Below, in pieces: positions 22,459 to 26,282 of a DNA stretch of 64,000 nt. The DNA is from Escherichia coli (GTDB taxonomy: Bacteria > Pseudomonadota > Gammaproteobacteria > Enterobacterales > Enterobacteriaceae), in NCBI RefSeq assembly GCF_024502345.1, contig NZ_JALDNN010000001.1, one strand, 5' to 3'. Made by a program: the position numbers and the translations under genes. Below the pieces are notes generated by a model. That model saw nothing but the letters and a program-made list of their open reading frames with translations. It ran no database searches and was not told the origin of the DNA. The first letter of the stretch is position 1. Every line of letters starts with the position of its first letter.

Positions 22459-23791
<1,333 letters not shown>

Positions 23792-23866
23792 ATTTATTAG
23801 ATCAGGCGTGACCTGACCCATCTTTGGCACAGAGCCAAACCTGAACTGACGGACCGCTCTGTGCCA

Positions 23867-24172
23867 TTACCTGACGTTGTATTCTTTTATGTTAACACCC
23901 TTGATACTGTATATACCTGTCCGCTTAATTCGCTTGCCCTTTTTATTCGTAATAGTTGCTGTAAGTGTACTGCAGCGAATGGAATGACGTTCATCAATCA
24001 CCAGCCGAATTGCTTCTGAAGCATCTTCCACCTCTAGAAGGTCGTGAGTCTTATTTAAGCCGAATGGAACAAGGTGGAAGGCAGTTTTTCCTGATGATTT
24101 TCTGGTTATTTTTACTGGATACAACACATCACCACTTTTATGGATTAATTCAAGCTGTTCAATGTAAATCAT
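23867..24172 (-). CDS. hypothetical small basic protein (101 aa from the ATG at 24172), no family recognised
   Basis: ATG preceded by AAGGAAAG Shine-Dalgarno, 16 nt after the stop of the upstream YhcG-like ORF; AT-rich; the track's 113-aa version uses a TTG start. Confidence 0.4.
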   Translation of the reverse strand: MIYIEQLELIHKSGDVLYPVKITRKSSGKTAFHLVPFGLNKTHDLLEVEDASEAIRLVIDERHSIRCSTLTATITNKKGKRIKRTGIYSIKGVNIKEYNVR

Positions 24173-24188
24173 GGCAACTTTCCTTCGT

Positions 24189-24668
24189 TTATTTGCATGA
24201 ATATACAAACCGAAAATAGGAGATGCAATACAAAAGCTGTGGAAATATCAAACAGCCTCTCAATTTGGCAGACAGCGTCTGCCAAATCTTTGCCGATGGG
24301 AATTCTGCAGATGGTGTCTGCGGAATTCCCAATGGTGTTAATTCGCCAGACACTGTCTGGCGAATTTCAACATGTTGAAAAAAGAGGTAAAAAAGCCTCA
24401 TTTGGCGTAAGTTTTTTGCAGAGAACCCACGCTTATACCTTAGACTTAAATCCTTTGATAGTCGCTTGATTAGCTGCGCACCATACGCAGCCCTTGCCTC
24501 GCCACCTTGTTCAAATTCGACAATTCGTCGGCCAATTTCCCAGTATGTCGCGGTCATCAGCGCGTTAACGCTACGTACCGTTTCCGTCCGGACGCTATCG
24601 ACCAGGTGAATAATATCGTCGTGGATTTGCTGGTAGCCTGTTGAGGTTCTCTCTGAGAGCGATTCCAT
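24189..24668 (-). CDS. yhcG: YhcG/DUF1016-family N-terminal domain ORF (159 aa); either a truncated yhcG remnant or a short stand-alone variant
   Basis: First ~96 aa (ATYWEIGRRIVEFEQGGEARAAYGAQLIKRLSKDLSLRYKRGFSAKNLRQMRLFYLFF) look like the DUF1016 N-terminal domain; then three 13-14-codon repeats and a hydrophobic tail; too short for the 375-aa K-12 YhcG. Confidence 0.5.
   Translation of the reverse strand: MESLSERTSTGYQQIHDDIIHLVDSVRTETVRSVNALMTATYWEIGRRIVEFEQGGEARAAYGAQLIKRLSKDLSLRYKRGFSAKNLRQMRLFYLFFQHVEIRQTVSGELTPLGIPQTPSAEFPSAKIWQTLSAKLRGCLIFPQLLYCISYFRFVYSCK
24263..24366. repeat. array of three palindromic or quasi-palindromic units with centres 39 bp apart
   Basis: atttggcagacagcgtctgccaaat / gggaattctgcag..ctgcggaattccc / aattcgccagacactgtctggcgaatt, all built on GCCAGAC/GTCTGGC-type arms. 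Confidence 0.7.
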
Positions 24669-24851
24669 TATCTGTCCCTTTATATGGCGCTGCGTTGAAT
24701 AATGGAATCAGCTATACGCCGGGCATCTACCGGTAACAATCCAGATGAGCGTATTACATTGGTTTTCTTCAGATTATGCGAGGCGCTTTCCAGAAAGAAA
24801 GGAGAATTTCAGCGCCGACTCTTTTCTGAGGAGGCGGCGCTGGGACAGAGC

Positions 24852-26282
<1,431 letters not shown>

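What the first reader, a model, noticed from the sequence alone, without database searches (positions are those of the whole stretch)
23792..24851. K-12 block gltF-yhcADEF is missing between yhcH and gltD, replaced by a compact AT-rich two-ORF module
In the K-12 order I recall, yhcH is followed by yhcG, yhcF, yhcE (IS5-disrupted), yhcD, yhcA and gltF before gltD, about 8 kb. Here the yhcH stop (23791) and the gltD stop (24852) are only about 1.06 kb apart. That space holds a 159-aa ORF whose first ~96 residues look like a YhcG/DUF1016 N-terminal domain, then a 16-nt spacer with a strong AAGGA ribosome-binding site, then a 101-aa lysine/arginine-rich ORF I cannot place in any family. The 3' half of the segment (about 23870..24260) is visibly AT-rich compared with the flanking core genes. 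The tight stop-RBS-start spacing looks like a translationally coupled bicistron rather than a randomly decayed yhcG. Candidate readings are a truncated PD-(D/E)XK nuclease remnant, a small toxin-antitoxin or defence-type pair, or a strain-specific allele.
Basis: partly seen in the sequence, partly recalled or inferred. Interest (0 to 1): 0.6.

Follow-up and report, generated by a model that had tools for sequence, protein, structure and literature searches.

The report
Broken yhcG plus phage-derived orphan gene
Between the sialic-acid and glutamate-synthase genes this E. coli strain carries a truncated, dead copy of the nuclease gene yhcG joined to a 470-base patch of phage-type DNA with one small intact gene; this is a common strain variant rather than a new two-gene system, but the small gene belongs to an unstudied family that elsewhere sits inside restriction-enzyme operons.

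Summary
The sequence facts are all correct: ORF coordinates, 16-nt spacer, AAGGA site, low G+C and no family for the 101-aa ORF.

- **K-12 block.** Lacking gltF-yhcADEF is the normal state. Only about 21% of 5,426 complete E. coli genomes carry gltF. yhcG is the resident neighbour of gltD.
- **What is unusual.** A 470-bp foreign patch (23793..24262, 40% GC) replaces the last 780 bp of the yhcG region. This allele occurs in 719 genomes (13%), including ATCC 8739, 55989 and O104:H4.
- **The 159-aa ORF.** It is a yhcG pseudogene: 135 native residues plus 24 read from foreign DNA. The nuclease domain is lost.
- **The patch.** It holds a homologue of the P2 phage Z-region "left inverted repeat", starting right after the nanQ stop. 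It also holds an orphan 101-aa gene with 85 bp of its own leader and RBS. The apparent bicistron is therefore a fusion accident.
- **The 101-aa protein.** RefSeq calls it "transposase" without support. It belongs to a real, conserved family (dN/dS 0.08-0.3) of basic proteins about 100 aa long. Close relatives are solitary prophage genes. Distant ones lie in hsdR-X-hsdM-hsdS operons. The predicted fold recurs in proteins named HNH endonuclease and McrB-type ATPase.
- **Function.** Probably nucleic-acid binding linked to restriction. This is inferred, not shown.

The parts
23327..23791 (+). nanQ (yhcH), the intact left flank. Homology to other E. coli runs through its stop codon to 23792.
   Evidence: ORF list; RefSeq annotation of the identical allele; breakpoint mapping by blastn.
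23793..24262 (.). 470-bp foreign patch (40.4% GC). It replaces 780 bp of the common allele: the 59-bp nanQ-yhcG spacer plus the 3' 721 bp of yhcG (240 codons and the stop).
   Evidence: Breakpoints against E24377A and MG1655; present in 718-719 of 5,426 genomes at 99% identity or more; GC.
23793..23877 (.). Homologue of the 'left inverted repeat' that borders the variable Z (Z/fun) region of P2-like phages. Here it starts right after the nanQ stop codon, as it starts right after the stop of tail-fibre assembly gene G in P2.
   Evidence: blastn to P2-like prophages and phages at 73-81% identity, E down to 2e-9; feature annotated 'left inverted repeat' in AJ512683, AJ512682 and AJ512676.
23825..23866 (.). 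Perfect 11-bp inverted repeat TGGCACAGAGC-N20-GCTCTGTGCCA, the core hairpin of the P2-type repeat. It abuts the stop codon of the 101-aa gene.
   Evidence: the repeat finder I8; unique in the window, 0 expected by chance; RNA fold -26.6 / -36.7 kcal/mol, z -3.5 / -4.4. No T-run, so the scan does not call it an intrinsic terminator.
23867..24172 (-). Orphan 101-aa gene (WP_000639208.1, labelled 'transposase' in RefSeq). Basic (pI 9.7), mostly beta, from an uncharacterised family.
   Evidence: ORF; 101-aa homologues in Enterobacter, Yersinia and Cedecea; dN/dS 0.08-0.30; AF2 pLDDT 92.7; no Pfam, NCBIfam or PADLOC match and only a non-significant PHROG, E = 0.15.
24173..24258 (-). Native leader of the 101-aa gene, carrying its AAGGA ribosome-binding site. 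The stop codon that ends the chimeric yhcG' ORF (24189..24191) also lies here.
   Evidence: Conserved upstream of the homologues in Yersinia, Enterobacter and other genomes with different neighbours. Those copies keep up to about 250 bp upstream; E. coli keeps 85 bp.
24189..24668 (-). yhcG' chimeric ORF of 159 aa. Residues 1-135 (24263..24668) are native YhcG N-terminal domain. Residues 136-159 are read from the foreign leader. The PD-(D/E)XK nuclease domain is absent, so this is a pseudogene.
   Evidence: Protein comparison with the full 375-aa YhcG; PADLOC PDC-S02 match limited to residues 8-111; RefSeq 'incomplete; missing C-terminus'.
24263..24366 (.). Three palindromes spaced 39 nt apart inside yhcG, encoding the repeats IRQTVSGEL, IPQTPSAEF and IWQTLSAKL. 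The right breakpoint of the patch sits exactly at the edge of the first one.
   Evidence: the repeat finder I1-I3, I6, I7; pattern hits at 24268, 24307 and 24346; RNA fold -59.4 kcal/mol, z -8.8; junction sequences.
24669..24851 (.). Native yhcG upstream region abutting the gltD stop. It is collinear with the majority E. coli allele that lacks the K-12 fimbrial block.
   Evidence: 99% identity through to gltD in E24377A-type genomes. K-12 diverges at about 24796, where yhcF begins.
24852..26270 (-). gltD, the intact right flank.
   Evidence: ORF list and annotation.

Best explanation
The interval is an ordinary strain-variable locus that holds a decayed gene and a small piece of phage-derived DNA.

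**Shown**
- In most E. coli, gltD is followed directly by yhcG and then nanQ. yhcG is a 375-aa PD-(D/E)XK nuclease listed by PADLOC as defence candidate PDC-S02.
- In one allele, found in 13% of complete genomes, a 470-bp foreign patch replaced the nanQ-yhcG spacer and the last 240 codons of yhcG.
- Translation from the yhcG start now runs 135 native codons. It then runs 24 foreign codons to the first stop it meets. The nuclease domain is gone.
- The patch has two parts. One is a copy of the inverted repeat that borders the cargo (Z/fun) hotspot of P2-like phages. The other is a convergent 101-aa gene with 85 bp of its own leader and RBS.
- The tight stop-RBS-start arrangement is therefore inherited from the foreign gene's leader. 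It is not evolved coupling.
- The 101-aa gene belongs to a family under purifying selection.

**Inferred**
- The patch derives from a phage accessory-gene ('moron') cassette and arrived in a single event.
- The 101-aa protein is a small basic nucleic-acid-binding domain that works with restriction systems. Distant relatives are a fixed component of RtcR-HsdR-X-HsdM-HsdS operons. The same predicted fold occurs in proteins named HNH endonuclease and McrB-like ATPase.
- As an orphan here and in prophages, it most likely modulates restriction or DNA recognition (alleviation, decoy or exclusion), if it is expressed at all. Expression could come from the yhcG promoter or from a weak promoter in its leader.
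For: **Locus types and breakpoints:**

**Frequencies in 5,426 complete genomes**
- Window-type allele: 719.
- Intact yhcG 3' part: 3,671.
- gltF: 1,122-1,143.

**yhcG'**
- 135 native plus 24 foreign residues.
- PDC-S02 match to the N-terminal domain only, versus a full-length match for E24377A YhcG.
- RefSeq marks it as a pseudogene.

**Patch and leader**
- The patch is about 85% identical over 395-405 bp to solitary genes in Yersinia canariae and Enterobacter cloacae, including the 85-bp leader.
- The P2 left inverted repeat homology.

**The 101-aa family**
- 34 representative clusters (50% identity) by phmmer, nearly all about 100 aa.
- dN/dS 0.08-0.30.
- pI about 9-10.
- Confident AF2 model.
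- AFDB matches with TMq 0.65-0.8 to HNH and McrB/AAA_5 proteins.
- hsdR-X-hsdM(-hsdS) context in L027, L044/L045, L048 and L049, and hsdR directly upstream of X on the short contig L020.
- Prophage moron positions: L006, L013, L022-L026.
Against: - No expression data, and the consensus scan finds no promoter in 23700..24900.
- Only the left P2-type repeat is present, with no right repeat.
- The gene was not found in any sequenced phage or in a P2-like prophage. The P2 origin of the whole patch is therefore indirect.
- The structural link to HNH and McrB proteins rests on Foldseek matches to predicted models at 17-29% identity. Where the domain lies in those proteins was not checked.
- Two of five distant members examined by direct look-up are not in R-M operons: L039 lies beside an Mrr-type nuclease and L042 is in an unrelated context.
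- The E. coli copy has no hsd neighbour.
Confidence: 0.8

Rival explanations
1. The two ORFs are a functional, translationally coupled bicistron: a toxin-antitoxin or small defence pair made of a DUF1016 N-terminal domain protein and a basic partner.
For: The stop, 16-nt spacer with AAGGA, and ATG are real. Both ORFs are intact in about 718 genomes. yhcG is a PADLOC defence candidate, and some PDC-S02 models are short, N-terminal-only proteins.
Against: - The RBS, the spacer and ORF1's stop codon belong to the foreign gene's leader, which is conserved where the upstream genes are TetR, lambda P, a deaminase or an integrase.
- None of the close homologues examined has a DUF1016 neighbour.
- The last 24 residues of ORF1 are read-through of non-coding leader.
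- The 99.5-99.8% identity among carriers is too little divergence to show selection.
- Neither ORF matches a toxin or antitoxin family.
Confidence: 0.06
2. The 101-aa ORF is a transposase or insertion-sequence remnant, as RefSeq labels it, and the patch is a decayed IS.
For: RefSeq and UniRef name it 'transposase'. IS elements sit in or beside it in some strains: IS1 in E. coli 22F46 and an IS3-family element in Shigella.
Against: - No Pfam, NCBIfam or PADLOC match for any of 27 family members, and only a non-significant PHROG.
- No terminal inverted repeats flank the unit.
- The Shigella record P0002 is an in-frame fusion of an IS3-family OrfB C-terminus to this ORF, which plausibly seeded the name.
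- The fold is a small beta domain that matched no transposase, only SH3-like folds weakly.
Confidence: 0.03
3. The 101-aa gene is itself decaying junk. It is intact only because the acquisition is recent, is not expressed, and has no role in E. coli.
For: - Carriers differ by 0.5% or less, so intactness is uninformative.
- The copy keeps only 85 bp of a leader that is about 250 bp in other genera.
- No promoter was called.
- Shigella copies carry frameshifts and IS insertions, and one E. coli copy carries IS1.
Against: The family as a whole is under purifying selection. The retained leader is the most conserved non-coding part and holds a candidate -35/-10 pair (TTGCAT-17 nt-TATATT) plus the RBS (my reading, not a tool call). 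Read-through from the yhcG promoter is also possible.
Confidence: 0.35

Closest known systems
yhcG (DUF1016 / YhcG-family PD-(D/E)XK nuclease; PADLOC candidate PDC-S02) and its pseudogene alleles
   Same: ORF1 is yhcG at its normal chromosomal place. It is 133/135 identical to E24377A YhcG over the N-terminal domain.
   Different: The nuclease domain is deleted and replaced. Other strains inactivate yhcG differently (IS629 plus a group II intron) or carry a divergent 370-aa allele.
Cargo ('moron') cassettes of the P2-like phage Z/fun (TO) region, bordered by left and right inverted repeats (GenBank AJ512676, AJ512682, AJ512683; Nilsson, Karlsson & Haggard-Ljungquist 2004, Mol Biol Evol 21:1, cited from reference lists and memory, not read here)
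   Same: An 85-bp homologue of the left repeat with its hairpin. It starts at the stop codon of the upstream gene and is followed by an AT-rich cargo gene. P2 cassettes can also carry the cargo on the opposite strand (AJ512683 ORF1).
   Different: It lies in the chromosome next to nanQ, not between phage genes G and FI. There is no right repeat. This cargo gene was not found in any P2-like phage.
DNA-recognition domains fused to type IV restriction enzymes (McrB-family AAA+ proteins, HNH endonucleases)
   Same: The predicted fold matches a domain in AlphaFold models named HNH endonuclease, '5-methylcytosine-specific restriction protein B' and AAA_5 ATPase (TMq 0.65-0.80, E 1e-6 to 1e-3). The protein is basic.
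Small accessory ORFs embedded in type I restriction-modification operons
   Same: Homologues (phmmer E = 3e-10 to 8e-4 from the E. coli protein) sit between hsdR and hsdM, overlapping or within a few bases, in Chitinibacter, Aquitalea, Marinobacter and metagenomes.
   Different: The E. coli, Enterobacter and Yersinia clade is never next to hsd genes. It sits in prophage accessory positions or integrase islets.
Phage restriction-alleviation morons such as lambda Ral and Rac Lar (positional analogy only, from general knowledge)
   Same: A small prophage-borne gene near the N gene or the replication genes, with a family link to type I R-M.
   Different: There is no sequence or structural similarity, and no functional test. 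This is a lead, not a classification.

Membership tests
YhcG / DUF1016 PD-(D/E)XK nuclease (PDC-S02) | N-terminal DUF1016_N-type domain | tested here: met
   PADLOC PDC-S02 models match residues 8-111 at E = 1.3e-33. 133/135 residues are identical to E24377A YhcG.
YhcG / DUF1016 PD-(D/E)XK nuclease (PDC-S02) | C-terminal PD-(D/E)XK nuclease domain with catalytic D...(D/E)xK | tested here: not met
   The ORF leaves yhcG after residue 135. Full YhcG matches the PD_DExK model at residues 141-284, and none of that stretch is present here. RefSeq: 'missing C-terminus'.
Transposase / insertion sequence (RefSeq label of the 101-aa ORF) | Recognisable transposase catalytic or DNA-binding domain | tested here: not met
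   No Pfam, NCBIfam or PADLOC match for the protein or any of 27 relatives; the one PHROG hit is non-significant.
Transposase / insertion sequence (RefSeq label of the 101-aa ORF) | Terminal inverted repeats and multiple copies per genome | tested here: not met
   No flanking terminal repeats. Full-length copies occur once per E. coli genome, always at this locus; the second places reported in some genomes were not inspected individually, but the short partial matches examined are P2-type repeats in P2-like prophages.
Type II toxin-antitoxin or two-gene defence pair | The two genes are conserved together across genomes | tested here: not met
   The close homologues of the 101-aa gene that were examined have unrelated upstream genes.
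Type II toxin-antitoxin or two-gene defence pair | Toxicity of one product neutralised by the other | not testable with these tools
   Needs expression experiments.
P2-like Z/fun (TO) region cargo cassette | Left inverted repeat beginning at the stop of the upstream gene | tested here: met
   23793..23877 aligns to the annotated left inverted repeat of P2-EC58, EC53 and EC30 and to P2-like prophages, E down to 2e-9.
P2-like Z/fun (TO) region cargo cassette | Right inverted repeat closing the cassette | tested here: not met
   No match to the right repeat in 23700..24400. The hairpin pattern occurs once in the window.
P2-like Z/fun (TO) region cargo cassette | Location between tail-fibre assembly gene G and sheath gene FI of a P2-like prophage | tested here: not met
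   The flanks are nanQ and yhcG/gltD.
Type I R-M-embedded small protein 'X' (hsdR-X-hsdM-hsdS) | Sequence homology to the X proteins | tested here: met
   phmmer from the E. coli protein: P0044 3e-10, P0051 1.8e-6, P0061 7.9e-4 against 1.8 billion proteins. Shared motifs: H-x-SGD-LYP, TG..AFR, VR, GLY, SI.
Type I R-M-embedded small protein 'X' (hsdR-X-hsdM-hsdS) | Adjacent hsdR and hsdM genes | tested here: not met
   The neighbours here are nanQ and yhcG'/gltD.
DNA-reader domain of type IV restriction enzymes | Same fold as the fused domain in McrB or HNH proteins | tested here: inconclusive
   Foldseek matches to AlphaFold models, TMq 0.65-0.80. The matches are to predicted structures, and the position of the domain in those proteins was not inspected. 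No solved-structure match.
DNA-reader domain of type IV restriction enzymes | Binds (modified) DNA | not testable with these tools
   Only charge (pI 9.7) and context suggest it.

The most novel reading that the evidence does not exclude
The 101-aa protein represents an undescribed family of restriction-associated nucleic-acid-binding modules, seen in three settings:
- a fixed fourth subunit or regulator of an RtcR-controlled, EcoAI-like type I R-M cassette (hsdR-X-hsdM-hsdS);
- a domain fused to McrB- and HNH-type restriction enzymes;
- solitary copies in enterobacterial prophages, and the one stranded in this E. coli locus, which may have been co-opted as decoys or alleviators that tune host restriction.
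Probability: 0.25. Interest if true: 0.55.

Novelty: new member of a known kind. Interest (0 to 1): 0.33.

Why it matters
For the locus itself it matters little. It is one more example of a chromosomal defence-candidate gene (yhcG) being knocked out and patched with phage-derived DNA. The allele is already present, though poorly annotated, in hundreds of public genomes.

Three by-products are useful:

1. The RefSeq name "transposase" for WP_000639208.1 and its relatives appears to be an artefact and should be dropped.
2. A P2 Z-region border repeat sitting at a chromosomal gene's stop codon is a concrete case for the old proposal that these repeats move cargo between phages and chromosomes.
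3. The 101-aa family is real and conserved, has a confidently predicted fold with no solved relative, and has a consistent link to type I and type IV restriction systems. That makes it a cheap and testable candidate for a new restriction accessory or anti-restriction function.

Tried and rejected
- **Frameshifted yhcG.** Rejected. The 470 bp do not align to any yhcG allele, even with a 7-nt word size.
- **Family assignment of the 101-aa protein.** Pfam on the single sequence and on 27 members, NCBIfam, PHROGs, PADLOC and a PDB sequence profile all gave nothing significant.
- **Rfam on 23000..25500.** No RNA family.
- **Promoter and terminator scan.** None called.
- **Search for the gene in phages.** No sequenced phage has it. 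IMG/VR gave only two Yersinia-type prophage contigs at 59% identity. Plasmids gave two partial Klebsiella copies.
- **Search for a P2 right inverted repeat in the window.** None.
- **Looking for fused architectures by sequence.** Two repeat profile searches returned no HNH or AAA fusions, and the second added nothing to the first. The two fusion proteins found by phmmer (P0049, P0062) have N-terminal parts with no recognised family: Pfam found nothing for P0062, and P0049 was not scanned.
- **Profile-based locus scans.** Only a narrow clade alignment worked.
- **Nilsson et al. 2004.** The paper could not be read because it is not held. What it says about the repeats is cited from GenBank feature tables and from memory only.
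Full report
**1. Observation**

The window is the E. coli nan-glt region. The relevant features are:
- nanQ (yhcH) at 23327..23791 (+);
- gltD at 24852..26270 (-);
- a 159-aa ORF at 24189..24668 (-);
- a 101-aa ORF at 23867..24172 (-).

On the minus strand the junction reads TAA-ACGAAGGAAAGTTGCC-ATG. G+C is 38.4% over 23870..24260, against 51.7% for the whole window. Every descriptive statement is confirmed.

**2. The missing K-12 block is the common state**

Three arrangements were found among annotated genomes:
- K-12 carries the 7-kb gltF-yhcADEF fimbrial block.
- E24377A has gltD, full-length yhcG and nanQ, with nothing else between.
- The window type, as in ATCC 8739, has gltD, a truncated yhcG, a gene labelled "transposase", and nanQ.

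Counts among 5,426 complete genomes are:

| Feature | Genomes | Share |
|---|---|---|
| gltF present | 1,122-1,143 | 21% |
| Intact 3' part of yhcG | 3,671 | 68% |
| Window-type allele | 719 | 13% |

The window-type allele occurs in strains including 55989 and the O104:H4 outbreak lineage. Other strains carry a divergent 370-aa yhcG. Others have yhcG broken by IS629 and a group II intron. The fimbrial block is therefore not "replaced" by anything here. yhcG is the resident gene next to gltD.

**3. What actually changed**

blastn against E24377A shows homology up to 23792 and again from 24263. The 470 bp between (23793..24262, 40.4% GC) replace 780 bp of the common allele. Those 780 bp are the 59-bp nanQ-yhcG spacer and the last 240 codons of yhcG.

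The 159-aa ORF consists of 135 native YhcG residues followed by 24 residues read from the foreign DNA up to the first stop. Two of the 135 native residues differ from E24377A. Full YhcG matches PADLOC PDC-S02 models end to end, and a PD-(D/E)XK model at residues 141-284. The truncated ORF matches only over residues 8-111. RefSeq marks it as a pseudogene.

**4. The foreign patch has two recognisable parts**

(a) Positions 23793..23877 are 73-81% identical to the sequence that immediately follows the tail-fibre assembly gene of P2-like prophages and phages (E down to 2e-9).
- GenBank records AJ512683, AJ512682 and AJ512676 annotate that sequence as the "left inverted repeat" of the P2 Z region.
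- This region is the known variable cargo hotspot of P2-like phages, noted in PMC9122126 with reference to Nilsson et al. 2004.
- Its core is a perfect hairpin, TGGCACAGAGC-N20-GCTCTGTGCCA, at 23825..23866.
- As in P2, the repeat begins at the stop codon of the upstream gene.
- No right repeat is present.

(b) Positions 23854..24258 are about 85% identical to solitary 101-aa genes in Yersinia canariae and Enterobacter cloacae.
- Pairwise comparison of six copies shows homology always ends 4-13 bp after the stop, inside the hairpin region.
- Upstream, homology extends up to about 250 bp in other genera but only 85 bp in E. coli.
- The AAGGA site, the spacer and the TAA that ends yhcG' all lie in this conserved leader.
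- The "bicistron" is therefore a by-product of where the foreign leader was joined to yhcG.

**5. The 101-aa gene is real but unclassified**

- Homologues of 93-117 aa occur in Enterobacterales at 59-93% identity, and more distantly at 30-50% in other Proteobacteria. phmmer E-values against 1.8 billion proteins go down to 3e-10 for the distant ones.
- dN/dS among genera is 0.08-0.30.
- Members are basic, with pI mostly 9-10.
- No Pfam, NCBIfam or PADLOC model and no PDB sequence matches any member; the single PHROG hit is not significant.
- AlphaFold2 gives a confident model (pLDDT 92.7, pTM 0.82) of seven strands and one helix.
- The RefSeq name "transposase" is unsupported. A Shigella flexneri record (P0002) is an in-frame fusion of an IS3-family OrfB C-terminus to this ORF, and UniProt I6CFW0 is called "putative IS1 encoded protein". 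These are plausible sources of the name.

**6. Context and fold point to restriction systems**

Close relatives are solitary genes in prophage accessory positions:
- after the lambda-type O and P genes of a Rac-like remnant (L013);
- in the nin region of an Enterobacter prophage (L006);
- beside the N gene of Yersinia prophages (L022-L026);
- in integrase islets (L004, L033, L028).

None has a conserved partner.

Distant relatives lie between hsdR and hsdM, overlapping them or within a few bases. This holds in Chitinibacter (L027), in metagenomic contigs (L044/L045), in Aquitalea (L048) and in Marinobacter (L049). On the short contig L020 the homologue overlaps the end of hsdR, and the downstream gene was not identified. 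Three of these loci are preceded by an RtcR-like sigma-54 activator. Two other distant members are not in such operons: one sits beside an Mrr-type nuclease and one is in an unrelated context.

Foldseek against AFDB50 finds the same fold (TMq 0.65-0.80) inside proteins named HNH endonuclease, 5-methylcytosine-specific restriction protein B and AAA_5 ATPase.

From this I infer a small nucleic-acid-binding module that works with restriction enzymes. This is inference from charge, context and predicted folds. No binding or phenotype has been shown, and the E. coli copy has no hsd neighbour.

**7. Mechanism and verdict**

- Shown: yhcG is inactivated by replacement of its nuclease half with phage-type DNA. 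The allele has identical breakpoints and 99.5% or higher identity in about 719 genomes.
- Inferred: it arose in a single acquisition event, possibly helped by hairpins. The right breakpoint is exactly at the first of three 39-nt-spaced palindromes in yhcG. A fourth related palindrome lies in the deleted spacer.
- Unknown: whether the 101-aa gene is expressed in E. coli. It could be transcribed from the yhcG promoter, or from a weak candidate promoter in its conserved leader (TTGCAT-17-TATATT, my reading). The scan called no promoter.

The toxin-antitoxin or defence-pair reading and the transposase label are both rejected. The finding is a correct observation of an ordinary, already-sequenced strain variant. 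Its one interesting element is an uncharacterised small-protein family linked to restriction.

Noticed in passing
window 24263..24366 (and L002 3237..3266 in E24377A): Three palindromes exactly 39 nt (13 codons) apart lie inside yhcG. They encode the repeats IRQTVSGEL, IPQTPSAEF and IWQTLSAKL, and read as similar peptides on both strands. The predicted RNA structure is -59.4 kcal/mol (z = -8.8). A fourth related palindrome (GATTCTGCAGACACTGTCTGCAGAATTC) sits just 3' of full-length yhcG. The patch's right breakpoint is at the edge of the first palindrome. No other copies occur in the window.
   Followed up: partly
L027 933..9026; L048 64..8001; L049 46..8016: A conserved cassette occurs in Chitinibacter, Aquitalea and Marinobacter: an RtcR-like sigma-54 activator, an EcoAI-like HsdR of about 1,150 aa, a protein of about 100 aa, HsdM, then HsdS. 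This suggests an inducible type I R-M variant with an extra small subunit.
   Followed up: partly
protein P0002 (Shigella flexneri), UniProt I6CFW0, locus L012 4355..5052: IS elements repeatedly hit this small gene: an IS3-family OrfB C-terminus fused in frame upstream in Shigella, and IS1B inserted into the gene in E. coli 22F46. This probably explains the 'transposase' and 'IS1 encoded protein' names.
   Followed up: yes
window 23793..23877; L010 4001..4083; L011 4001..4081: The P2 Z-region left inverted repeat occurs in about 200 E. coli genomes just after the tail-fibre assembly gene of P2-like prophages. It is followed there by different cargo: an IS3 fragment, hypothetical genes, or a DUF3606 gene.
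   Followed up: partly
L046 3136..4248; L047 1..4237: yhcG is itself highly variable among E. coli. One allele is a divergent 370-aa protein that aligns with the window sequence only over its 5' part and the upstream region (about 94-95% identity). Another is split by IS629 and a group II intron (ltrA). About 19% of complete genomes have neither the common 3' half nor the window-type patch.
   Followed up: partly
window 24197..24469 (+): A 90-aa ORF on the opposite strand of yhcG' mirrors the palindrome-encoded peptide repeats (SIWQTASAK..., ILQMVSAEF..., IRQTLSGEF). It is almost certainly a by-product of the palindromes rather than a gene.
   Followed up: no
This could be a defence or toxin islet.
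   Followed up: no
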